Below, piece by piece: positions 1,895 through 56,300 of a stretch of 64,000 nucleotides of DNA. Positions within the stretch are counted from its first letter, which is position 1, and every line of letters begins with the position of its first letter. The notes beneath the pieces are model-generated. The model did no database searches. It saw only the letters and a list, made by a program, of their open reading frames with translations, and was not told where the DNA came from. This DNA is from an uncultured bacterium (GTDB lineage: Bacteria > Verrucomicrobiota > Verrucomicrobiia > Limisphaerales > UBA8199), in contig CAVQND010000015.1 of assembly GCA_963713735.1 (NCBI GenBank), positions 8,095-72,094 of the forward strand. Reading direction: 5' to 3'. Both the position numbers and the translations under genes were made by a program.

Positions 1895-2128
1895 CGCGAA
1901 TGGGCGATGCCGTGACTCCCGACTACCATCTGTCATCCCTCCGGGATGAATTCCCGGGCGGCGGGTACTCTCCCCGAGCTCGAGACCCACATGGTGGCAC
2001 TGACGGGCTGCGCCCTGCCACGGCGGCGCGTCCCCGATCGTTTGACGAACTGCTCTCCTTTACCTGCGAACCGATTCCCACTCGCGTCCACACGCTGGCA
2101 CCCCAGGGCCGCGCCGAAGGCGGCGGGC

Positions 2129-2306
2129 AGGGCCAGTGACAAAGTTCTCCGCAAACCATTGTAGGAGACGACGTGAGGAGTCTCTGATTGATTTTTGGCC
2201 ACAGCGAAAGCCTGCTCCACTCCGAGGCCATTGATCAGAGACTCCTTACGTCGTCTCCTACAGTCAGGGAATGGGGCCCGTTTCGGCGACTTTGTCAGCC
2301 GCCCTG
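2129..2306. repeat. 178-bp palindromic MITE/REP-like element, copy 1 (near-identical copy at 49328-49506)
   Basis: Near-identical sequence at both loci. Inner arms tgtaggagacgacgtgaggagtctctgat / atcagagactccttacgtcgtctcctaca, and outer arms sharing the tgacaaagt core in inverted orientation. Confidence 0.85.
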
Positions 2307-11545: not shown

Positions 11546-12043
11546 ATGAAAGCGAAAGGCGTTATGAGCAGACTGATTCTCATTAGTATCTCGGTTGCGA
11601 GCCTGGCCTTGCTTGGCCAGTCGGCCCGCGCCGCCAGTTATTCTTCCGGCGGCTTCCATTCCGGCGGCGTCCACTATGGCGGAGGTGGCGCCGGCGGCGT
11701 CCACTATGGCGGAAGTCACTCCGGTGGCGTCCACCCCGGCGGCGGTCACTCCGGCGACACCCGTCCTTATTCGACCTCCACTTACCGCGTGTACACCTAC
11801 GGCCCCTATCCCTACGGCGCCTATCCCTACCCGGTCTATGGGTTTGCCGGCGTTGGACCCGCGGCCTGGCCGGGCGCCGGGCTGCCGCTGGTGCGGCTGC
11901 ATGAGTTCGAGAAGGCCAGCGGTTACGTCTTTGGAAGGCCAGGGCACCAGGTCGTTCTCAACGCCCCTGTGGGCGGCGGCGGCCCGCATCCCGAGTGGCA
12001 GACCAAGGCCGGGGCGAAGGCCCTAACCAAGTGGGAACGATAA
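11546..12043 (+). CDS. Secreted Gly/His/Tyr-rich low-complexity repeat protein
   Basis: Signal peptide MKAKGVMSRLILISISVASLALLGQSARA. Repeats GGFHSGGVHYGGGGAGGVHYGGSHSGGVHPGGGHSG are followed by the YGPYPYGAYPYPVYGF block. Confidence 0.55.
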   Translation: MKAKGVMSRLILISISVASLALLGQSARAASYSSGGFHSGGVHYGGGGAGGVHYGGSHSGGVHPGGGHSGDTRPYSTSTYRVYTYGPYPYGAYPYPVYGFAGVGPAAWPGAGLPLVRLHEFEKASGYVFGRPGHQVVLNAPVGGGGPHPEWQTKAGAKALTKWER

Positions 12044-12068: not shown

Positions 12069-13088
12069 ATGAAAACCTCTGTTTATTTGTTTGTCGGCGG
12101 CGTTCTGATGAGCTGCCTGTTTGCCGGAGGCGGCTGCGCCTCGAGTGCCCCTCGCCGGCCGGCCACAACGACGGCCCGCCCCGACTCGACTGCCCTCCTG
12201 AACATGCGCCTGATGCTGGCGGCCAAGGCCGGGCGCGTCGCTGCGGTTCAGGACTTCCTGGCCCGAGGCGCGAAGGTCAATGCCAGTGACTTTCGCGGCC
12301 GAACCGCTTTGATGTGGGCGGCGGGCAAGGGCAACGCCGAGGTGGTGCAACTGCTCCTGAAGTCGGGAGCGGCCGTGAACCAGACGGAGAAGGACGGCAG
12401 CACCGCCTTGATGTGGGCGGCGGGCAGCGGCCACGCTGAGGCCGCGAACCTGCTGTTGGCTGCGCGGGCGGAGGTGAACACGAAAGCCGAGGATGGCAGC
12501 ACCGCCTTGATGTGGGCTGCGGGCAACGGTTGCGGGGAGCTTGTGACGCTGTTGCTCAAGGCCGGCGCAGTCCCCGGCGCCGCGGACCGCGAAGGCGCCA
12601 CCGCCCTTGCCTGGGCTGCGAGCGGCGCCCACCGCGCGGTTCTCAAAACCCTCTGGGATGCCGGGGCGCCCTCCCCTCTGGCGCCGGAGTCCGCCGTTGC
12701 GCTGGCCTGGGCCGTGGGCAGCGGGGATGCCGCCACGGTGCAGATGCTGCTCCAGGCGGGCATTGCCCCCGACGCCCGGGCGGCGGATGGCAGCACGGCG
12801 CTGCACTGGGCCGCCGGCTGCGGCCGGCCGGACGTTCTGAAAGTCCTCCTGGCCGCCCAAGCCAAGGTGAATGCGGCCAGGAATGACGGCGCCACGCCCC
12901 TCATGTTCGCCGCCGGCGCGGGCAAGTCCGAACTCGTCCGCCTGCTGTTGGCCGCCGGGGCCGACGTCAACGCCCGGCTCAAAGACGGGACCACCGCGCT
13001 CGCTTGGGCCAAGCAGCACGGCTACCCCCAGACCGCCGAGTTACTCCGCCAGGCCGGTGGGAAGGAGCACGTTCAGTCCAAGGGCTGA
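12069..13088 (+). CDS. Ankyrin-repeat lipoprotein (about 9 repeats)
   Basis: Lipobox-type signal ...VLMSC.... Repeated G.TALMWAA..G..E.V.LLL.AGA units, with near-identical 99-bp tandem DNA units around 12390-12590. Confidence 0.85.
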   Translation: MKTSVYLFVGGVLMSCLFAGGGCASSAPRRPATTTARPDSTALLNMRLMLAAKAGRVAAVQDFLARGAKVNASDFRGRTALMWAAGKGNAEVVQLLLKSGAAVNQTEKDGSTALMWAAGSGHAEAANLLLAARAEVNTKAEDGSTALMWAAGNGCGELVTLLLKAGAVPGAADREGATALAWAASGAHRAVLKTLWDAGAPSPLAPESAVALAWAVGSGDAATVQMLLQAGIAPDARAADGSTALHWAAGCGRPDVLKVLLAAQAKVNAARNDGATPLMFAAGAGKSELVRLLLAAGADVNARLKDGTTALAWAKQHGYPQTAELLRQAGGKEHVQSKG

Positions 13089-22297: not shown

Positions 22298-22350
22298 AGC
22301 AGAGGGCAGGGGCTCGAGGGCAGGTCATGCAAGAGTCCGGCGCCGCTAAC

Positions 22351-22547
22351 GCGGATATTCCACAGCCTAAGCGCGGTACTGGGCTGCCGAAGCTGCGTAG
22401 CGCAGATTTCCAACCTGCTGTATCGCCGACTTCAAGTCGGCAGGCTGTACCTGGTTGGGAGCATGTGCGGATTGGAAATCCGCGATACGGCAGGCTGGAA
22501 GCCTGCGCTACGCCTTCCAGTTTGCGAAACCCGTGAAATATCCGGGC
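22351..22547. repeat. ~200-bp TIR-bounded MITE, copy 1 (inverted relative to the copy at 30826-31024)
   Basis: High similarity to the reverse complement of 30826-31024. Internal sub-repeats include gcaggctggaagcctgcgctac. The terminal motif gcccggatatttcac is intact at the right end and degenerate at the left. Confidence 0.8.
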
Positions 22548-22678
22548 CAAGACTTGCTTCCTGCCAGGGGCGACATTACTCTGCCAACGTGAAGGTGTTG
22601 GAACCAGTGCTGCACCGCCAAGCCCAAGCCGTGGCCACCGCCGGCGGTGTCGCCCCCCGGACGAAACGGTCTCGCTCC

Positions 22679-30613: not shown

Positions 30614-30825
30614 GTTTTGAGGCCAGGATTTCGTCCCCAGCCAGCCGGAACCTCCGCAGCGTGGTGTTGTCCCAGGCAGTCGGTCCCGTCCGCCGCCGTA
30701 ATGCACGCCGCCTCGGGCAGGGTCGCGCAGCACTACCAGGCGTTTGCAGCCAGACCCCTGGTTGAACTCGGCAAACCCAGTATCAGATGATACCCATGGT
30801 CAGATGATCCGCATGAACGGACCTG

Positions 30826-31024
30826 GCCCGGATATTTCACGGGTTTCGCCAACTGGAACGCGTAGCGCAGGCTTCCAGCCTGCTGTATCGCGGATTTCCA
30901 ATCCGCAGATGCTCCCGAGCAGGTACAGCCTGCCGACTGGAAGTCGGCGATACAGCAGGTTGGAAACCTGCGCTACGCAGCTTCGGCAGCCCAGTGCCGC
31001 TCTTAGGCTGTGAAATATCCGGGC
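30826..31024. repeat. 199-bp TIR-bounded MITE, copy 2
   Basis: 15-bp terminal inverted repeat gcccggatatttcac at both ends. Reverse complement closely matches 22351-22547. Confidence 0.85.
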
Positions 31025-31071
31025 TAAGACTCGGGCGGCTGCGGAAACGAAAGGGCCTCCGACCGTTCAGG

Positions 31072-36504: not shown

Positions 36505-37739
36505 ATGGTGTTGATAATGAGACCGTCACTTCTTGCCTTCGGCGCCACTGCGCTCGTGGTCCTGGCGCAACCGATAGCCGGCGAGGCTGCGGGAGAAGAG
36601 CTTACGAATGCCGTCCACGCGTTTCTGCAACATCGCATCGACATCGAAAAGTTGGGCGTTGGCATGGTGGTCGGCATGGTGGACGAACACGGAAGCCGCG
36701 TTGTCAGATTGAGCGTGGAGCGATGCGGCGGGAGGATGCTGTGGCCAGGTATTTGCCCAAATCGGTCAGGATGCCGACCCGCCACGGCAAGGAAATCACC
36801 TTGCTCCAACTGGCCACGCACACCTCCGGGCTTCCCCACGAGCCCGACAACCTCGCCCCCAAGCGCGCGGATAATCCCCGGGCCGATTATGCCGCCGGGG
36901 ACCTGTATGCCTTCCTGTCCGGGTACGAATTGACTCGTGACCCGGGAGCGGAGTATGAGTATTCCAGCCTGGGAGTGGGGTTGCTCGGTCATGTCATCGC
37001 CTTGAAAGCCGGGACGAACTACGAATCGCTCGTGGCGGACCGGATCTGCCGGCCATTGGGGATGGAGAGCACCCGCCTCAGCCTGACCCCCGAACTGCAA
37101 GCCCGATTCGCCCAGGGATACAACGAACTCGGATACCCGGTATCGAGCTGGGATTACCTGGCTTTGTCCGGTTGCGGCGCGCTGCGCTCGACGGTCAATG
37201 ATCTGCTGAAATGCACGTCGGCCAATCTCGGCCTGACACCGTCCAGTCTCACGCCGCTCATGGAAAAGACGCACGCAGGTCACTTTCACCAATTGACCAT
37301 TTTTGACTTTGGCTTGGCTTGGGTGATCCGGCAGGCGCACGATCTCGGCCACGCCTTTTCCTACAAGCGGACCTCCGAGCAGCCGCCCAAAACCCCCGAA
37401 CCACCGAAACCGCGGGTCGCGATCAAGCTGGACGCAAGACTGCTGGGTGCCTGTGCCGGCCACTATGAGTTTCCGCCGAACGGAGTGTTTCCCCCCACGG
37501 GAATGAAAGTGAGGATCTGGCGGGAAGGAGAACAGTTGCTCTGGCAAGCCTGGGGCAAGGACGCAGCCAAAGGCGCAATTGATCTTTATCCCGAGTCGGA
37601 AACGAACTTCTTCCTCAAGTTCAATGGTGCGCAACTGACCTTCCTCAAGAACGACAAAGGAGAAGTGACCGCAGTACGTCATCATCTGGAGGGGTTGCCC
37701 GATTGTGAGGGAAAGAAACTGCCAGCCCCAGCCGATTGA
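36505..37739 (+). pseudogene. Beta-lactamase-family serine hydrolase with DUF3471-like C-terminus; catalytic S-x-x-K region deleted
   Basis: Signal plus ...VGMVDEHGSRVV, then a frame change directly into ...ERGAMRREDAVARYLPKSVRMPTRHGKEITLLQLATHTSGLP. The ~40 aa that normally hold the S-x-x-K are absent. Confidence 0.65.
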
Positions 37740-38260
37740 AGCGCGCGCTCACCCGCGAAGCGGCAAAACCGGCGCGGCGGCAAAAAAGCAATTTCTTATG
37801 TGCAGCCTTCTGTCCTTTGACATGCTTGCAGGTGCAAGAGTATCAGATTTGGTGCAAGCGGAATTTCATAAAAAGTTGTTGGAGGACACCGCGACGGCCA
37901 CCGTTTGTGAACGGTTTATGCGCATTTAGCGGGGACGCAACCGTTGGTCAAAGATCGGACCCGAGACGGGGGAAGGCCGATGGCAAACTGACCCCGCCCG
38001 GTCTGCGGACTAGTGCTACGAGACCCCTGGAGAGTTCTCCGCCGGAACCCCTGAGAGCAGCTCCATGGTCTAAGTATCTTTGAGCAGCACCGCCACGCCA
38101 GCCAGGCGTGAGCGGGGAAAGGGGAGGCCAGTTGGTAATCTTGCACAAACAGCCGGTATCCCTTACCGCTGTGGTCCCACTTGAACCACTCCGGCCTACC
38201 CCCCGCCCCGGATCCTCCTTCAACCGCGCCGGCGACGCACCCTGGATTGAAGCCTCGCCC

Positions 38261-39733
38261 TCAGGCCTTGGCGCTACAGGAGTGTTGCGGTAAGGGCAAG
38301 GAAATTGAGTGGCTTTCTTGAACCATCGCGCGCCACTTTCCCAAGGCAGTATAGGGCGCAAAGACCTGGGCTAATGGGGCCTTGGACTGCCACTTGATTA
38401 GGAGTTTGGGCCAGAGTTCCAGGTAATAAGCCGCCCGCGCTGGGGCGGGGGACTCGGGCGCGTACAGGTCGGGCGGCAGGTAAAGGGTTTGCCGCTGCAT
38501 CAAGGATTTGCCCAGACCCAAGAGGTCTTTGGCCACCACGAAATCGGCATGGCTCTTGCGGGCCTGGACGTCTCGGTAACGTTGCTGGAGTTCAGGTGGG
38601 CCCATTTGCCCCATTTTATTGGCGGCTTGGACCAGGTAATTTTTGAGGTGATGATTACAGCGCTGCCAGACTCCCAAGACGACCGGAGCCTGGTCGGGGC
38701 CACCACTCTGCCTGGTGGCGGGAACGATGCCCGCATAGGAACAGAGCAAATCCAAGTTGGGTAATTGGTCCGGCGGCCCCAGTTCACTGGCCATGCCGGC
38801 GGCCAAGGTGACACCGATGCCGGCGATGGAAGTCAGGACCGCACCCGGGGTCTTGGCGAGCAAGGGGGCAATTTGACGATCCAAGCCGGTGATGACTTGT
38901 TGGAGAGATTGGCTTTGGTCGGCCAGGACTTTAAGTAGTTGCTGCCAGGTGGCCACATATTGGGTGGAGGGCGGCAGGACTTCACGGGCCAAAGATTGGA
39001 GGGTGGCAGCCGCCGTGGGGGCGTCGGGCAGGCCCTGGCGCTGGAGGCCCTCGATGAGGTTGCCGGTACGGCGCTGGGCAATTTGTGGAGCGCTAAAACG
39101 ATCTTCCAGCAGCCACCAACAGGCCGGAGTGAAAGGCGGGATGCCGCTCTTTTTGGGGTCCAGGAATTGGGGAAAGAGCCGGTCGACATAATTATGGAGG
39201 CGATTGGTCAGCGCCGTGGCGGAGGTGACGAAGCAATGACGTTCCCGGCACAGGTCGCGCAAGTGGCGGTAATCGTCGGCGACGGGAGGATTGAGTTTGC
39301 CGCGTTGTTTGAGCAGGCATTGAGCAATTCCCAGCAGGTCCAGGGTGTCATTGGAGGCTTGGAAGTTTACGCGTTGCTTTTTGGCTTCCCAGGCGTTGAC
39401 ACGAGCGACGGCAAAACCTTTGGCTCGGAGGGCGGTGATAAAGTTCTCGGCCCAAGCCGGGACATCCTCCCCGCCGAAGAAAGCGTGGGTGGACTGGAGA
39501 TGATGATGACGGCAAGTGTCGTCCAGTTGGGCGAGCGGGCCGGTTAAGCCGCTGGGAGAGTTATCCACGCTAAAAGCTTTCTTGAGGATATCGCCCACGC
39601 CATTGCAGAAAAGGACGGTGTGCTTACGCTTGGCATAGTCAATGGGAGCGCAGAGAACCCTGCGCGGATCCCCGGCCCGCTCAAACAGGTTGCGCAATTC
39701 GGGTTGGGGTTTAGCATAGATGGACGCAGTCAT
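38261..39733 (-). CDS. IS110-family (DEDD RuvC-like + Tnp domain) transposase/recombinase
   Basis: PIDYAKRKH..., ...SNDTLDLLGIA..., ...TSIAGIGVTLAAGMASELG... and ...SYAGIVPATRQSG... motifs typical of IS110/IS116/IS902 enzymes. Start taken at MTASIYAK (39733). Confidence 0.85.
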   Translation of the reverse strand: MTASIYAKPQPELRNLFERAGDPRRVLCAPIDYAKRKHTVLFCNGVGDILKKAFSVDNSPSGLTGPLAQLDDTCRHHHLQSTHAFFGGEDVPAWAENFITALRAKGFAVARVNAWEAKKQRVNFQASNDTLDLLGIAQCLLKQRGKLNPPVADDYRHLRDLCRERHCFVTSATALTNRLHNYVDRLFPQFLDPKKSGIPPFTPACWWLLEDRFSAPQIAQRRTGNLIEGLQRQGLPDAPTAAATLQSLAREVLPPSTQYVATWQQLLKVLADQSQSLQQVITGLDRQIAPLLAKTPGAVLTSIAGIGVTLAAGMASELGPPDQLPNLDLLCSYAGIVPATRQSGGPDQAPVVLGVWQRCNHHLKNYLVQAANKMGQMGPPELQQRYRDVQARKSHADFVVAKDLLGLGKSLMQRQTLYLPPDLYAPESPAPARAAYYLELWPKLLIKWQSKAPLAQVFAPYTALGKWRAMVQESHSISLPLPQHSCSAKA

Positions 39734-39739
39734 ACAGCT

Positions 39740-39968
39740 TGGTTCAAGTTGAGGCAGCGCGGTTTCGGCGCGTTGCCGATTAATCTTAACGGACTTGGAC
39801 TGATTAGCTTCCGCCAGCTCGTGGGTTAACACCACTGGCTGGCGGTCTCATTTGGGGGAAAAACTCTCAGAACCGGCCGAGGCCTGTCCCCTCGTTGGGG
39901 AATGGGTTGGCGGGCGAGCTTCGCCCGGGGGCTCGCCCGCCAACCCATTCCCCAACGAGGGTGAAGGT
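39740..39968 (-). ncRNA. Structured 5' leader of the IS110 recombinase (candidate bridge-RNA-type guide RNA)
   Basis: On the recombinase strand: 31-bp hairpin; hairpin CCGCCAGC...GCUGGCGG with inner GUGG/CCAC; 5-bp stem UAAUC/GAUUA closing the loop AGUCCAAGUCCGUUAA (plus 39786-39801); hairpin GGCAACGCG-CCGAAAC-CGCGCUGCC. The function is inferred from published IS110 biology. Confidence 0.4.
39889..39961. repeat. Perfect 31-bp-stem hairpin with 11-nt loop
   Basis: 39889-39919 (ccctcgttggggaatgggttggcgggcgagc) is the exact reverse complement of 39931-39961. Confidence 0.95.
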
Positions 39969-40012
39969 ACTAGTCCTGCCTGGTCAATGGATGGTTGGGC
40001 CGAGTAGTGATA

Positions 40013-40156
40013 GCAGACCCCGGCCGGGGGAGACCCCGGATGGTGCAAGCTCTGCCGTAAACGGGCGGGCCTGTCGGTGGCGCAAGTCATCGCCGGGGAC
40101 GGGCCAGCCGCTCTAGCCAACATGCAGGCCGCAACATTACGAGAAGACTGCCGCTC
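40013..40156 (+). ncRNA. Conserved ~145-nt structured module, copy A (paralog of 55521-55665); class unknown
   Basis: Shares with copy B an identical 28-nt block (ctctgccgtaaacgggcgggcctgtcgg), plus caggccgcaac and gactgccgctc. Closing helix GCAGA/UCUGC. Hairpin CCGGGG-GAGA-CCCCGG. The strand is tentative. Confidence 0.5.
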
Positions 40157-40246
40157 CGTTAATTAAAGGAGTCATTAAAGGAGTCAACCCATAGTATGGC
40201 TCATTGTTGTGTTGACTCTTGAGGGGGCGAGTGCGAAAAGAGGACC

Positions 40247-40625: not shown

Positions 40626-42209
40626 ATGGCAACTATGAATAAGCCAATTCGGGGCGGGCCGCTGTCGCCCGAGGAATTTCAGAAGCAACTGTCGGACTTT
40701 GTCCGGCAGCATTTTCAGAATTTGCGCGCCACGCCGGCGGCGGAACCTGCCGGCGGGGGCGCGGGCGCGCCGGAGGCCAAAGAGACCCAGGCCGGGCCGG
40801 AGGCGTTCGAGTTCAAGCACAAGCCGCGTGAGATCAAGGAGTATCTTGACCGCTTCGTGATCAAGCAGGACGAGGCCAAGAAGGTGCTGAGCGTGGCCTT
40901 GTGCGACCACTATCATCACGTGCGCCTGGCCCTGGAGGGAAAGGAATCTCCCAATTACGCCAAGCAGAATATCATCCTCATCGGGCCGACCGGGGTGGGC
41001 AAGACTTTCCTCATTCGCAACGCCGCCGACCTGGTTGGGGTGCCTTTTGTAAAGGCGGATGCGACGAAGTTTTCTGAAACCGGCTATGTCGGGGGCGACG
41101 TGGAAGATATGGTGCGGGATTTGGTGCGGCTGGCCGACGGCGACATCACGCGCGCCCAGTATGGCATCATTTACATCGACGAAATCGATAAAATCGCCTC
41201 AGCCGCCAACCTGGCAGGGCGGGATGTCAGCGGACGGGGCGTGCAAACCAATCTCCTCAAGCTCATGGAAGAGACCGAAGTTCCCGCCCGTTCGCCCAAC
41301 GACATCGCCGGTCAGATCCAGGCCATGATGGATTTCACCCAGCGCGGCCGCAAGGCGCCCAGCACCATCAACACCAAGCATATCCTGTTTATCGTCAGCG
41401 GGGCGTTCGATGGGCTGGAAAAGATCACCCGCAAACGCCTGCGCGAGGCAACCATTGGCTTCGCAGCCAAGGAGCGCCCGCCCGACACCGCCGCCGAGGT
41501 GCTCGACCACGCCCAAACCCCGGATTTCATCGAGTTCGGCTTCGAGCCGGAGTTCATCGGCCGTCTCCCGGTGCGGGTCGTTTGCCATTCGCTCCAGGTC
41601 GATGACCTCTTTGACATCCTCAAGAATTCCGAAGGCAGCCTCATCCGCCAATACGAGCAGGACTTCGCGGCCTACGGCATCGAGGTGTTGTTTTCGGACC
41701 CTGGTTTGCGAGCGATCGCGCAACGCGCCGCCCAGGAACAGACCGGGGCCCGCGGGCTGATGACCGTCAGCGAACGGGTGTTCCGGGACATCAAGTTCGA
41801 GTTGCCCTCCACCGGCGTCAGGCGGTTCGTCGTCACGGGCCAACTGGTGAATGATCCCGCCGGTGAGCTCAAAAAGATCCTCGCCGACCCCAGGCAGGAA
41901 GAGCGAATTGTCGCCCGCCAGCTCGTGGAGGAGTTCGCCCGGCGTTTCCAGGAAACTCACGGCATGACGCTCCGCTTCACCGAGGCCGCCGCCGGGATGC
42001 TGGTGGATGAGGCGCTCGACAAATCACAATCGGTGCGGGACCTCTGCGCCACCCGCTTCAAAGACTTTCACTTCGGCCTTAAGCTCATTGCCCAGAACTC
42101 CAGCCAGCGCGAGTTCGTCATCGACACGGACGCCATCAACGCCCCCGACAAGGTGCTCAGTGAATGGGTCGTCGCCAGCTACCGGTCCGCGGAGGCAAAG
42201 ACCGGCTGA
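40626..42209 (+). CDS. ClpX-family AAA+ unfoldase paralog lacking the N-terminal zinc-ribbon
   Basis: Walker A GPTGVGKT, Walker B IIYIDEIDK, an IGF tripeptide (ATIGFAAK), EFIGRLP sensor region and GARGL. No CxxC pairs at the N-terminus. ~90-aa C-terminal extension. Confidence 0.8.
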   Translation: MATMNKPIRGGPLSPEEFQKQLSDFVRQHFQNLRATPAAEPAGGGAGAPEAKETQAGPEAFEFKHKPREIKEYLDRFVIKQDEAKKVLSVALCDHYHHVRLALEGKESPNYAKQNIILIGPTGVGKTFLIRNAADLVGVPFVKADATKFSETGYVGGDVEDMVRDLVRLADGDITRAQYGIIYIDEIDKIASAANLAGRDVSGRGVQTNLLKLMEETEVPARSPNDIAGQIQAMMDFTQRGRKAPSTINTKHILFIVSGAFDGLEKITRKRLREATIGFAAKERPPDTAAEVLDHAQTPDFIEFGFEPEFIGRLPVRVVCHSLQVDDLFDILKNSEGSLIRQYEQDFAAYGIEVLFSDPGLRAIAQRAAQEQTGARGLMTVSERVFRDIKFELPSTGVRRFVVTGQLVNDPAGELKKILADPRQEERIVARQLVEEFARRFQETHGMTLRFTEAAAGMLVDEALDKSQSVRDLCATRFKDFHFGLKLIAQNSSQREFVIDTDAINAPDKVLSEWVVASYRSAEAKTG

Positions 42210-49327: not shown

Positions 49328-49506
49328 CAGGGCCAGTGACAAAGTTCTCCGCAAACCATTGTAGGAGACGACGTGAGGAGTCTCTGGTTGATTCTTGGGC
49401 ACAGCGAAAGCCTGCTCCCCTCGGAGGCCATTGATCAGAGACTCCTTACGTCGTCTCCTACAGTCAGGGAATAGGGCCCGTTTCGGCGACTTTGTCAGCC
49501 GCCCTG
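49328..49506. repeat. 179-bp palindromic MITE/REP-like element, copy 2 (same orientation as 2129-2306)
   Basis: Near-identical to 2129-2306 along its full length, with a handful of substitutions. Confidence 0.85.
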
Positions 49507-54841: not shown

Positions 54842-54919
54842 CGGAGCGTAGCTCAGCCTGGCTAGAGCACTTGGTTTGGGACCAAGACGTTGCAGGTTCA
54901 AATCCTGTCGCTCCGACCA
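54842..54919 (+). tRNA. tRNA-Pro (anticodon UGG), CCA encoded
   Basis: Hand-folded cloverleaf. Acceptor CGGAGCG/CGCUCCG, D stem GCUC/GAGC, anticodon stem CUUGG/CCAAG with loop UUUGGGA, 5-nt variable loop, T stem GCAGG/CCUGU with loop UUCAAAU, discriminator A, then CCA. Confidence 0.9.
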
Positions 54920-55432: not shown

Positions 55433-56300
55433 GAGACTAGCAGCCTGTCGGACTTAGAAACCGATTTCGGTGGCTGGACCCCATCACCAGATCCCGCTGC
55501 TCACAAAAATCAAGAAAAAAGCAGACTCCAGCGAGGGGAGCCCCTGGCTGGGGCAATCTCTGCCGTAAACGGGCGGGCCTGTCGGCGGCCCAGAGCCGCG
55601 GACGGGGGCTGGTGAGCCGCTCCAGCCAACGTCCAGGCCGCAACGTCAACAACTGACTGCCGCTCAGAAAGCGCTTCCTTCTCTGAAACCACTGAGGAGG
55701 GCGTCTTGGAACAGCCGAACCGTGATAGGAACGGTGAAGGCTCTGATGACCGGGAGATGAGCGATCAAATGAACTCCGTCAGCCGACGGGGTAGAGGTCG
55801 CGGCATGGACGGAAGGTATGTCAAAGCAAAGAAGGGAAGGTGAGCCGAACGGCCCGCGAGGGCAAAGACCGCCCAGAGCAAGCCGAACAGGCCCAAGCTG
55901 CACGGAGTTCGCCAGACCGCCGCATCAGGCCGTAGTAGCGTTTGCAGGCGAGGGGACAAAAAACCGTACTGAGCCAAGGGCCCGTGGGCACAGCCGCGAT
56001 CCGATACATCTGGACTCTGAGCCAGACACGGAAAGGAACGCAGCCTCCGCGTCAAACGCCGCCGGGGACGGCTGCGGAAGGGCGCGGAGCGACAAGGCTG
56101 GCTGACGACCGTACCGGAAAACTCACCCTGCGGGATGAACAGAGGGGGTGGGGGAAACGTGGGCAGCACCCGATGGCCATTCGCAACGATGCTCGAAAGG
56201 GCAGAAACACACCAAGCCATTGGTCCAAGCCGTCCGCGCCTCCACTCCACTCGACCAGTCGTTGGTCAATAAAGAAACTGCCGCCCCGCGGCGATTTCTG
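55433..56300 (+). ncRNA. Candidate large structured RNA / giant structured leader (class unknown)
   Basis: No credible ORF in any frame across ~980 bp. Purine-rich plus strand with GNRA-capped helices (55852-55863 GCGA loop, 56191-56202 GAAA loop), a tandem-G.A symmetric helix at 55713-55742, pseudoknot-compatible segments at 56039-56088 and an 11-bp hairpin at 56273-56299. Confidence 0.45.
55521..55665 (+). ncRNA. Conserved ~145-nt structured module, copy B (paralog of 40013-40156)
   Basis: Same order of conserved blocks as copy A. Helices keep their position but change sequence: GCGGC-CCAGA-GCCGC here vs GGCG-CAAGUCAU-CGCC in A. The outer helix CUCCAGC/GCUGGGG needs a U.G pair, which is valid only on the plus strand. 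Confidence 0.5.

What the first reader, a model, noticed from the sequence alone, without database searches (positions are those of the whole stretch)
38009..39974. IS110-family element inserted in the centre of a perfect palindrome, with a leader hairpin loop repeating the target half-site twice (bridge-RNA-like)
actagt flanks the element on both sides (38009-38014 and 39969-39974). Deleting 38015-39974 (the IS plus one actagt copy) rejoins the flanks as ...gcGGACTAGTCCtgcc..., a perfect 10-bp palindrome. In the recombinase 5' leader, on the same (minus) strand, a 5-bp stem UAAUC/GAUUA closes a 16-nt loop AGUCCAAGUCCGUUAA (plus-strand ggacttggact at 39791-39801). AGUCC is the complement of the left half-site top strand and also of the right half-site bottom strand. 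That is exactly what left and right target guides would have to be for a palindromic target. Published work on IS110/IS621 elements shows that the non-coding left end encodes a bridge RNA whose loops base-pair with target and donor DNA. A tandem occurrence of the specific target pentamer inside a leader hairpin is unlikely by chance. However, the architecture here (a simple loop rather than an internal loop around a central stem) differs from IS621, and I could not identify a donor-binding loop.
Basis: partly seen in the sequence, partly recalled or inferred. Interest (0 to 1): 0.7.

Follow-up and report, generated by a model that had tools for sequence, protein, structure and literature searches.

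The report
IS110 element; bridge RNA lies downstream
This is a fairly ordinary RNA-guided (IS110-family) jumping gene of 2.1 kb whose guide ("bridge") RNA lies after its recombinase gene, not before it.

Summary
The element is an IS110-family insertion sequence, yet it spans 37839-39971 (2133 bp), not 38015-39968. It is flanked by a CT core on each side (39973-39972 and 37838-37837, minus strand).

Eight relatives share the extra 170 nt. More than 50 uninterrupted metagenome homologues align without gaps to the flanks rejoined at 37838|39974. The real target is GGCAGGA-CT-TGCAC, a T-loop-like hairpin in a dispersed ~275-nt repeat, not GGACTAGTCC.

The guides lie in the 3' non-coding region, on the recombinase strand, with IS621 geometry:
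- LTG 38183-38173
- RTG 38146-38140
- LDG 38081-38070
- RDG 38019-38010
- a 3-nt handshake guide, UCC, at 38009-38007

Across 40 elements the guides follow their own targets, and the helices flanking both loops covary.

That segment is by design the reverse complement of the left junction GGA-CT-AGT, which explains the apparent palindrome.

The leader hairpin is absent from the predicted minimum-energy fold and its stem is broken in a close relative. Its AGUCC repeat does not track targets.

Verdict: a new, divergent member of a known kind.

The parts
39972..39973 (-). Left copy of the CT core (AG on the + strand); the left target ...GGCAGGA lies just outside it at 39974-39980
   Evidence: Flanks diverge immediately upstream of CT in the window, L081, L082, L084, L086 and L089. 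The empty-site alignment agrees.
37839..39971 (-). The insertion sequence proper, 2133 bp (left end AGTACCTT..., right end ...TCTGATACT)
   Evidence: The same ends are found in 53 of 90 related loci, with element lengths of about 2.0-2.15 kb for most.
39889..39961 (-). Left-end hairpin with a perfect 31-bp stem, starting 10 nt inside the element
   Evidence: Long hairpins of unrelated sequence sit at the same place in L008, L017, L038 and L046. Its function is inferred only: a 5' stabiliser or insulator of the junction-promoter transcript.
39781..39806 (-).
   Evidence: Not in the minimum-energy fold. The stem is broken in L082. No family-wide complementarity to targets. No covariance-model hit.
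38261..39733 (-). Recombinase gene, 490 aa, of the DEDD (RuvC-like) plus Tnp type
   Evidence: Pfam PF01548 at 4e-16 and PF02371 at 9e-11. D32, E89 and D129 are invariant and D132 is nearly invariant (27 of 28); S343 sits in the Q-[ST]-G-G motif. The profile hits the IS621 and ISCro4 transposases in the PDB.
38114..38209 (-). Target-binding loop module. Outer stem 38209-38184 / 38136-38114; LTG CAAGUGGGACC 38183-38173; inner stem-loop 38172-38147; RTG GUGCAAG 38146-38140; then AUU 38139-38137
   Evidence: The RTG is the exact reverse complement of CT+TGCAC. The LTG matches GGCAGGACT at 7 of 9 positions, counting two G:U wobbles. The helices covary. Covariance-model hit at 38132-38188.
38000..38091 (-). 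Donor-binding loop module. Outer stem about 38091-38084 / 38006-38000; LDG AAAGAUACUUAG 38081-38070; inner stem-loop 38069-38025; RDG GUAGCACUAG 38019-38010; handshake guide UCC 38009-38007
Evidence: The LDG matches GATACT+C of the right end. The RDG pairs with CT+AGTAC of the left end. The UCC pairs with the GGA of the left target. The helices covary. Covariance-model hit at 38003-38087.
37839..37999 (-). Right-end tail: conserved structured stretch, T-run, -35-like TTGCAC (37857-37852), left donor ...CTGATACT (37846-37839)
   Evidence: Conserved in all close relatives. The simulated circle junction gives TTGCAC-17 nt-TACCTT. The same TTGnnn-17-TAnnnT arises in 44 of 47 elements.
37837..37838 (-). 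Right copy of the CT core; the right target TGCACC follows at 37836-37831
37749..37838 (+). Left part (+ strand) of the ~275-nt dispersed repeat that holds the target hairpin GCAGG-TGCAAGT-CCTGC
   Evidence: BLAST of the rejoined flanks against the metagenome loci covers query positions 311-585.
39974..40158 (+). Right part of the same repeat (group-II-D1D4-4-like)
   Evidence: Rfam RF02003 scores 34 bits in the window, where the repeat is interrupted. It scores 55.5 bits, above the gathering score, in the intact homologue L090.

Best explanation
A 2133-bp IS110-family insertion sequence (37839-39971, minus strand) sits between two copies of a CT core, in the loop of a small hairpin of a dispersed repeat. 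Its recombinase is guided by a bridge RNA encoded downstream of the gene, on the same strand.

The RNA has two internal loops:
- The target-binding loop carries a left target guide with the sequence of the left target's top strand, so it pairs with the bottom strand. It also carries a right target guide complementary to core + right target.
- The donor-binding loop does the same for the element's own joined ends. It ends in three 'handshake' bases that pair with the last three bases of the left target once strands are exchanged.

By inference from IS621, the element excises as a circle. Joining the ends then builds a promoter (TTGCAC-17 nt-TACCTT) that drives the leader, the recombinase and the bridge RNA. 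The recombinase-RNA complex would then insert the circle at GGCAGGA-CT-TGCAC.

Shown here: the boundaries, the empty site, guide-target and guide-donor complementarity with family-wide covariation, and the helix covariation.
Inferred: transcription, RNA processing, circle formation and catalysis.
For: Boundaries
- Sequence conservation runs to ...TCTGATACT|CT in 8 independent loci whose outer flanks are unrelated.
- 53 loci have both ends.
- More than 50 uninterrupted homologues are colinear, without gaps, with the flanks rejoined at 37838|39974.

Guides
- Across 40 elements the RTG pairs with its own core+RT at positions 1-7 with frequencies 1, 1, 1, 0.8, 0.85, 0.85, 0.85. Against unrelated targets, positions 3-7 give 0.26-0.5.
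- The LTG matches its own left target: mean 7.45 of 9, against 6.28 for unrelated targets. Wrong-strand controls show no difference.
- Exact examples: L017 CGUUACACU, L073 ACUACGGCU.
- The window and L081 differ by a compensatory pair: RTG GUGCAAG with target CTTGCAC, against GUGAAAG with CTTTCAC.
- The RDG base C or U follows right-donor G or A in 40 of 40 elements.
- The handshake triplet pairs with its own left-target positions 7/6/5 at 0.92/0.70/0.57, against 0.44/0.46/0.55 for other targets. It avoids its own donor (0.25/0.02). This is the behaviour described for IS621 (PMC11208158).

Structure
- 18 consensus pairs flank both loops; 14 show compensatory changes.
- 98.5% of cells are paired; 0 of 500 shuffles reach the observed values; slid registers give 27-52%.
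- A model built only from relatives whose transposase is at most 49% identical ranks the two loops first and second, on the right strand and in the right order.
- G:U pairs in guides and helices fit only the recombinase strand.

Other
- Geometry follows PMC11208160.
- A junction promoter is reconstituted in 44 of 47 elements.
- No sigma-70-like promoter is found in the integrated copy.
Against: - No RNA, circle or activity data exist for this element or its subfamily.
- The window LTG is imperfect: 2 mismatches and 2 wobbles in 9.
- The covariance-model scores on the window are weak (9.4 and 6.8 bits, E 0.015 and 0.077, and only with filters off).
- The NCBIfam IS110 model scores 116.6, below its cut-off of 140.
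- The 3 nt after the RTG do not clearly pair with the donor.
- The functions of the 235-nt leader, its 31-bp hairpin and the 160-nt tail are unassigned.
- The tandem AGUCC in the leader is statistically unusual and remains unexplained.
Confidence: 0.9

Rival explanations
1. The IS is 38015-39968, inserted in the centre of the palindrome GGACTAGTCC. The tandem AGUCC in a leader hairpin loop serves as both left and right target guides.
For: - The actagt repeat, the rejoined palindrome and the AGUCC x2 are all in the sequence.
- L082 has AGCCC in the first pentamer and GGCT instead of GACT in its left flank, a change that could be compensatory.
- Two AGTCC within 10 nt are rare in shuffles (0.17%).
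Against: - The 170 nt beyond 38015 travel with the element in 8 loci with unrelated flanks.
- Empty sites lack both those 170 nt and the palindrome.
- L081 has the same left target but one pentamer mutated. L084, L086 and L089 have no complementary pentamer in that loop.
- The family-wide rate is 5 of 40, against a 17% background.
- The hairpin is not in the minimum-energy fold, and its stem is broken in L082.
- True guides are found elsewhere, with strong covariation.
Confidence: 0.02
2. Modular composite, as in ISPpu9/ssr9. A shorter IS ending at the internal ACTAG (38010-38014) sits next to a separate ~170-bp hitch-hiking module bounded by its own end-like box. Either unit could move alone.
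For: - ISPpu9 forms several circles using alternative end boxes (PMC12288879).
- The internal GUAGCACU-AG resembles the true right end GAUACU-CU.
- L084 and L085 carry an inverted partial copy of the tail inside their leader, so the tail can be rearranged.
Against: - The internal site lies inside the donor-binding loop. A break there would separate the RDG from its closing stem.
- None of the 53 elements lacks the tail.
- The resemblance to the right end is expected, because the RDG is the complement of a left end that partly mirrors the right end.
- No solo tails were found in the window.
Confidence: 0.04
3. The bridge RNA is as described, but the leader AGUCC repeat has an accessory role. 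[quoted passage not shown]
For: - AGUCC equals the bottom strand of left target + core.
- In the window, L081 and L082 at least one pentamer keeps 4-nt complementarity to that element's own LTG.
- The tandem repeat is rare in shuffles.
Against: - Only 4-5 nt of pairing are available.
- It is absent from L084, L086, L089 and the wider family.
- The three supporting elements are close relatives (transposases 86-88% identical), so shared ancestry explains the pattern.
Confidence: 0.04

Closest known systems
IS621 (IS110 group) and its bridge RNA (Durrant et al. 2024, PMC11208160; Hiraizumi et al. 2024, PMC11208158)
   Same: - DEDD + Tnp recombinase and a CT core.
- Two internal loops, with the target-binding loop 5' of the donor-binding loop.
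- The LTG has the top-strand sequence; the RTG is complementary to core + right target.
- The RDG pairs discontinuously (GUA[GCA]CUAG against CTAGTAC).
- Handshake bases follow the RDG; they pair with the left target and avoid the cognate donor.
- A promoter is built across the joined ends.
   Different: - The bridge RNA is encoded after the gene, not before it.
- The recombinase is 490 aa, against 326-328 aa, with a conserved C-terminal extension of about 100 aa.
- Sequence similarity is only detectable with a profile (E 7e-6).
- The element also has a long structured 5' leader with a 31-bp hairpin.
- The element is 2.1 kb; by my recollection IS621 is about 1.3 kb.
IS1111 group (ISEc11, ISKpn4, ISPa11) seekRNA elements (Siddiquee et al. 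2024, PMC11187229)
   Same: The long non-coding region with the guide RNA lies downstream of the transposase gene. A junction promoter is presumed to transcribe the transposase gene and the RNA together.
   Different: - No subterminal inverted repeats of 7 bp or more: the longest is 5 bp, which is chance level.
- The order of the two target matches is the IS110/IS621 order. That paper describes the IS1111 order as the reverse.
IS110-type elements with a 3' non-coding region or with two long non-coding regions (groups noted in PMC11187229: 26 of ~350 ISfinder entries have two long non-coding regions; some IS110-type have a 3' one)
   Same: Both a long 5' (235 nt) and a long 3' (~420 nt) non-coding region, with short imperfect terminal repeats.
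   Different: I could not tell whether any named ISfinder entry belongs to this subfamily. The best plasmid-borne relatives are about 25% identical.
ISPpu9 of Pseudomonas putida (PMC12288879)
   Same: An IS110-family element that targets a repeated palindromic element. It has a structured 5' UTR, a small-RNA gene downstream of the transposase gene, and end-like internal boxes.
   Different: In ISPpu9 the downstream sRNA (Ssr9) is dispensable and the bridge RNA is upstream. ISPpu9 also forms no junction promoter. Here the downstream RNA carries the guides, and a junction promoter is predicted.

Membership tests
IS110 family (DEDD recombinase elements) | Recombinase with an N-terminal RuvC-like DEDD domain and a C-terminal Tnp domain | tested here: met
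   PF01548 at 59.6 bits (cut-off 29) and PF02371 at 42.5 bits (cut-off 21.3). D32, E89 and D129 are invariant and D132 is nearly invariant (27 of 28) across 28 relatives.
IS110 family (DEDD recombinase elements) | Scores above the curated cut-off of NCBIfam NF033542 (IS110 family RNA-guided transposase) | tested here: not met
   116.6 bits against a cut-off of 140. It is the best hit by far, so this is a divergent member rather than a non-member.
IS110 family (DEDD recombinase elements) | Site-specific insertion with a short core present at both junctions, no target duplication and no long terminal inverted repeats | tested here: met
   CT at 39973-72 and 37838-37. Empty sites have a single CT. 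No terminal inverted repeat above chance.
Bridge-RNA (bRNA/seekRNA) guided recombination | A non-coding region folds into two internal loops closed by conserved helices | tested here: met
   18 consensus pairs, 14 with compensatory changes; 98.5% paired; 0 of 500 shuffles reach the observed values.
Bridge-RNA (bRNA/seekRNA) guided recombination | Loop 1 carries segments matching the left target (bottom-strand pairing) and the right target (top-strand pairing), both including the core, and these covary with insertion sites | tested here: met
   In the window, RTG GUGCAAG matches CTTGCAC, and LTG AGUGGGACC matches GGCAGGACT at 7 of 9.
Bridge-RNA (bRNA/seekRNA) guided recombination | Loop 2 carries segments matching the element's own right-end/left-end junction | tested here: met
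   LDG AAAGAUACUU matches GATACT-C. RDG ..CACUAG matches CT-AGTG/A. The RDG base follows right-donor position 1 in 40 of 40 elements.
Bridge-RNA (bRNA/seekRNA) guided recombination | Handshake guide after the RDG pairs with the non-cognate left target and not with the cognate donor | tested here: met
   0.92 at position 7 for the element's own target, against 0.44 for other targets; 0.25/0.02 against its own donor. In the window, UCC pairs with GGA at 3 of 3.
Bridge-RNA (bRNA/seekRNA) guided recombination | The RNA is expressed, binds the recombinase and is required for transposition; a circular intermediate exists | not testable with these tools
   Only a sequence-level prediction of a junction promoter is available.
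IS110 group (sensu Durrant/Siddiquee) | The guide RNA is encoded in the left end, upstream of the recombinase gene | tested here: not met
   The guides are 38209-38000, downstream of the stop codon at 38261. The leader shows no guide signal.
IS1111 group | Subterminal inverted repeats of 7-17 bp | tested here: not met
   The longest exact inverted repeat between the first and last 40 nt is 5 bp; the shuffle mean is 4.7.
IS1111 group | Long non-coding region with the guide RNA downstream of the transposase gene | tested here: met
   ~420-nt 3' non-coding region holding both loops.
IS1111 group | [quoted passage not shown] | tested here: not met
   Here the bottom-strand-pairing LTG is 5' of the top-strand-pairing RTG. 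Caveat: this assumes the paper orients targets relative to the transposase gene as I do.
Group II intron (for the target repeat only) | Matches the Rfam group-II-D1D4-4 model and is accompanied by domain V/VI and/or a reverse-transcriptase ORF | tested here: inconclusive
   34 bits (gathering score 49) in the interrupted window copy; 55.5 bits in intact L090. No RF00029 hit and no long ORF next to the copies examined.

The most novel reading that the evidence does not exclude
The ~2.1-kb elements represented here may form a distinct, so far uncharacterised lineage of bridge recombinases. They occur in Desulfobacterota, Verrucomicrobiota, Planctomycetota and other environmental MAGs. The lineage would combine:
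- IS110/IS621 guide order and the lack of subterminal repeats;
- a downstream-encoded bridge RNA;
- a 3-nt handshake guide;
- a conserved ~100-aa C-terminal extension;
- Ser/Thr alternation at the presumed nucleophile;
- a conserved left-end hairpin.

On this reading the leader, including the AGUCC repeat in this clade, would add a regulatory layer, for instance an RNA mimic of the target that titrates the left target guide.
Probability: 0.12. Interest if true: 0.5.

Novelty: new member of a known kind. Interest (0 to 1): 0.3.

Why it matters
It matters mainly as a correction. The apparent new, minimal "single-loop" bridge RNA and its palindromic target are a misreading of a canonical two-loop bridge RNA encoded at the other end of the element.

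The case shows a trap for annotators. In IS110 elements, the right donor guide plus handshake guide is a reverse-complement copy of the left junction, so it can pass for an element end and a target duplication.

There is also a modest positive result. The work defines a widespread environmental subfamily with exact ends, a CT core, natural guide reprogramming in 40 elements, and empty sites. Its unusual mix of IS110-type and IS1111-type traits could supply further orthologues for work on bridge recombinases.

Tried and rejected
- **Rfam on the region.** There was no bridge-RNA family hit. The only hits were miRNA-like matches to the left-end hairpin and a sub-threshold group-II-D1D4-4 hit in the flank.
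- **Other copies in the window.** None found.
- **BLAST of the leader and tail against 85 loci.** Only the five closest loci matched, so nucleotide similarity alone could not define the family.
- **Minimum-energy fold of the whole 3' UTR.** Uninformative, with long-range pairings that comparison does not support.
- **Free-register guide scoring.** The signal was diluted, so I replaced it with fixed-register scoring.
- **Handshake role for the 3 nt after the RTG.** No clear pairing with the donor, and my register extraction was inconsistent in some clades. I make no claim.
- **Covariance model with default filters on the whole window.** No hit. Hits appeared only with filters off, on 2.6 kb.
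- **phmmer of the protein against the PDB.** Nothing. The profile was needed.
- **Synteny of the target repeat with the window's neighbouring genes.** None.
- **Intrinsic terminator or sigma-70 promoter inside the integrated copy.** No promoter, and no convincing terminator.
- **IS1111 membership.** Considered because the RNA is downstream, and rejected on subterminal repeats and guide order.
Full report
**1. The observation.**
The raw features are present.
- actagt lies at 38009-38014 and at 39969-39974.
- Deleting 38015-39974 gives gcGGACTAGTCCtgcc.
- On the minus strand, UAAUC and GAUUA can close a 16-nt loop, AGUCCAAGUCCGUUAA (39806-39781).
- The minus-strand ORF 39733-38261 (490 aa) has both Pfam IS110 domains.
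- A perfect 31-bp hairpin (39889-39961) sits next to the left end.
- Rfam has no family that matches the leader.

**2. The right boundary is wrong.**
I fetched the closest relatives of the recombinase: L081 (88% identical), L082 (86%), L083 (84%), L084/L085 (72%) and L086-L089 (63-68%).

The left boundary is sharp. Flanks diverge immediately upstream of CT|AGTACCTT.

It continues for ~170 nt in every locus, to ...TTGC(A/G)C-N7-TCTGATACT|CT. Only after that do the flanks become unrelated. In the window this point is 37839/37838.

The same ends, (A/G)GTACC(T/A)T... and ...CTG(A/G)T(A/G)CT with CT outside each, occur in 53 of 90 loci. These include relatives only 40-49% identical from Desulfobacterota, Verrucomicrobiota, Planctomycetota and other MAGs. 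Most of these elements are about 2.0-2.15 kb long.

The element is therefore 37839-39971 (2133 bp) with a CT core on each side.

**3. Empty sites.**
More than 50 of these contigs are colinear with the window flanks rejoined at 37838|39974, at 80-93% identity over up to 275 nt. There is no gap at the junction. L132, L102, L184 and L171 read TTGCAGGTGCAAGTCCTGCCT.

In recombinase orientation the target is GGCAGGA-CT-TGCAC. It lies in the loop of a T-loop-like hairpin, GCAGG-UGCAAGU-CCUGC.

**4. Where the guides are.**
I used the geometry published for IS621 (PMC11208160):
- LTG = top-strand sequence of left target + core
- RTG = reverse complement of core + right target
- LDG = left donor + core
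- RDG = reverse complement of core + right donor

With this, the guides are plain to see in the 3' non-coding region of every element. In the window they are:
- LTG CAAGUGGGACC, 38183-38173. Its 3' 9 nt, AGUGGGACC, match GGCAGGACT at 7 of 9 positions, counting two G:U wobbles.
- RTG GUGCAAG, 38146-38140. This is the exact complement of CTTGCAC.
- LDG AAAGAUACUUAG, 38081-38070. It matches GATACT-C.
- RDG GUAGCACUAG, 38019-38010. Read as GUA[GCA]CUAG it pairs with CTAGTAC, the same discontinuous pattern described for IS621.

Statistics over 40 elements:
- The RTG pairs with its own core+RT positions 1-7 at 1, 1, 1, 0.8, 0.85, 0.85, 0.85. Against unrelated targets, positions 3-7 give 0.26-0.5.
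- The LTG scores 7.45 of 9 against its own target and 6.28 against unrelated ones. Wrong-strand controls show no difference.
- The RDG base follows the first base of the left end in 40 of 40 elements.
- The window and L081 differ by a matched pair: GUGCAAG with CTTGCAC, against GUGAAAG with CTTTCAC. Both target variants exist among the empty sites.

The wobble pairs fit only an RNA made from the recombinase strand.

**5. Structure.**
An alignment of 40 such regions gives a consensus with four helices that close two internal loops.
- 14 of 18 pairs show compensatory changes.
- 98.5% of cells are paired.
- 0 of 500 shuffles reach the observed values.
- Slid registers pair at only 27-52%.

A covariance model built only from distant relatives (recombinase at most 49% identical) was run with filters off on 37600-40200. 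It ranks 38132-38188 (target loop, E 0.015) and 38003-38087 (donor loop, E 0.077) first and second, on the minus strand and in the right order. Nothing in the leader scores above noise.

**6.
The three bases after the RDG vary between elements and are flanked by conserved sequence. They are complementary to the last bases of that element's own left target:
- pairing of 0.92/0.70/0.57 at positions 7/6/5, against 0.44/0.46/0.55 for other targets;
- pairing of only 0.25/0.02 at positions 7/6 with the element's own donor.

This is the behaviour of the handshake guide of the IS621 donor-binding loop. That guide pairs with the incoming target top strand after strand exchange and must not pair with its own donor (PMC11208158).

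In the window, ...CACUAG-UCC (38015-38007) is therefore the exact reverse complement of the left junction GGA-CT-AGTG. The apparent second actagt, and the palindrome obtained by joining it to the left flank, follow directly from this.

**7. The leader hairpin.**
- The proposed stem is absent from the minimum-energy fold of the window leader.
- Its 3' arm GAUUA is GGACG in L082, with no compensating change. There the second AGUCC is predicted to pair within a different small stem.
- L081 has the same left target but AGCCC in the second pentamer.
- L084, L086 and L089 have no complement of their left target at the homologous place.
- Family-wide, the complement of an element's own left target + core occurs in 5 of 40 leaders, against 17% for unrelated targets.
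- Two AGTCC within 10 nt occur in only 0.17% of shuffled leaders. The repeat is therefore unexplained rather than shown to be chance. I give an accessory role about 4%.

What is conserved in leaders is a long hairpin just inside the left end, with unrelated sequences in different clades. Its role is inferred only.

**8. Expression (inferred).**
Joining right end, CT and left end gives TTGCAC-17 nt-TACCTT in the window. It gives TTGnnn-17-TAnnnT in 44 of 47 elements. The integrated copy has no sigma-70-like promoter. This matches the junction promoters known for IS110/IS1111 elements (PMC11208160, PMC11187229).

**9. Classification.**
The protein is a divergent IS110-family recombinase.
- NCBIfam NF033542 scores 116.6, below its cut-off of 140.
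- A profile of the family hits the IS621 and ISCro4 transposases at about 1e-6.
- The best plasmid-borne relatives are about 25% identical.

The RNA is downstream of the gene, as in the IS1111 group. However, there are no subterminal inverted repeats, and the guide order is that of IS621. Siddiquee et al. note that some IS110-type elements have a 3' non-coding region, and that 26 ISfinder entries have two long ones (PMC11187229). This arrangement is therefore within known variation. I file the element as a new, divergent member of a known kind.

**10. Target context.**
The target hairpin opens a ~275-nt repeat (37749-37838 + 39974-40158).
- It matches Rfam group-II-D1D4-4 at 34 bits in the interrupted window copy and at 55.5 bits, above the gathering score, in the intact homologue L090.
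- It shows no synteny with the window's genes, and many contigs break inside it.
- No domain V/VI or reverse-transcriptase ORF lies beside the copies examined.

Targeting a dispersed repeat is typical of the family.

Noticed in passing
window 37749-37838 + 39974-40158 (+); L090:3118-3340 and about 50 other loci among L090-L209: The IS target lies in a ~275-nt dispersed repeat that begins with a T-loop-like hairpin. It matches Rfam group-II-D1D4-4 (above the gathering score in L090). No domain V/VI or reverse-transcriptase ORF is nearby, and contigs often break inside it. Its nature is open: an orphan group II intron fragment, an sRNA family or a small mobile element.
   Followed up: partly
window 55520-55660 (+): Partial paralogue (85% over 73 nt, similarity continuing to about 140 nt) of the right part of the same repeat. 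It lacks the target hairpin. It lies about 600 nt downstream of a tRNA gene (54842-54916).
   Followed up: partly
window 40043-40056 (-): GGCAGAG-CT-TGCAC is a second near-match to the target, with 2 mismatches and an identical right half. It lies about 70 nt away inside the same repeat and could be a half-match site.
   Followed up: no
L084:~500-620 and L084:~2540-2657 (also L085): The leader of this 72%-identical relative carries an inverted partial copy (~100 nt) of its own right-end tail, including the -35-like box, inserted just after the left-end hairpin.
   Followed up: partly
window 38261-38570 (-), recombinase residues ~388-490: A conserved C-terminal extension of about 100 aa lies beyond the Pfam Tnp domain (motifs RAAYY..LWPKLL.KW, PLGQWR, ISLPLP). 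The 326-328-aa IS621-type proteins lack it.
   Followed up: no
window 38705-38707 (-), residue S343; alignment A1: The residue in the Q-[ST]-G-G motif, presumed equivalent to the catalytic serine of IS621, is Thr in 19 of 28 relatives and Ser in 9, including the window. The equivalence to IS621 S241 rests on memory of the SG motif and was not verified structurally.
   Followed up: partly
window 40162-40185 (+): An exact tandem duplication of ATTAAAGGAGTC (two copies), each with a Shine-Dalgarno-like AAGGAG, in the intergenic region upstream of the ClpX/HslU-like ORF (40626-42209).
   Followed up: no
window 2128-2306 and 49328-49506; 22347-22549 and 30824-31026; 61-279 and 1884-1962: Other long repeats in the window: a 179-nt direct repeat (97%), a 203-nt inverted repeat 8.3 kb apart (94%), and nested inverted repeats bracketing a ~1.9-kb segment at the window start, which may be another mobile element.
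   Followed up: no
window 12296-12592 (+) and 11661-11750 (+): Three tandem 99-nt units (63-71% identical to the first copy), which look like ankyrin-type protein repeats, and three tandem 30-nt units nearby.
   Followed up: no
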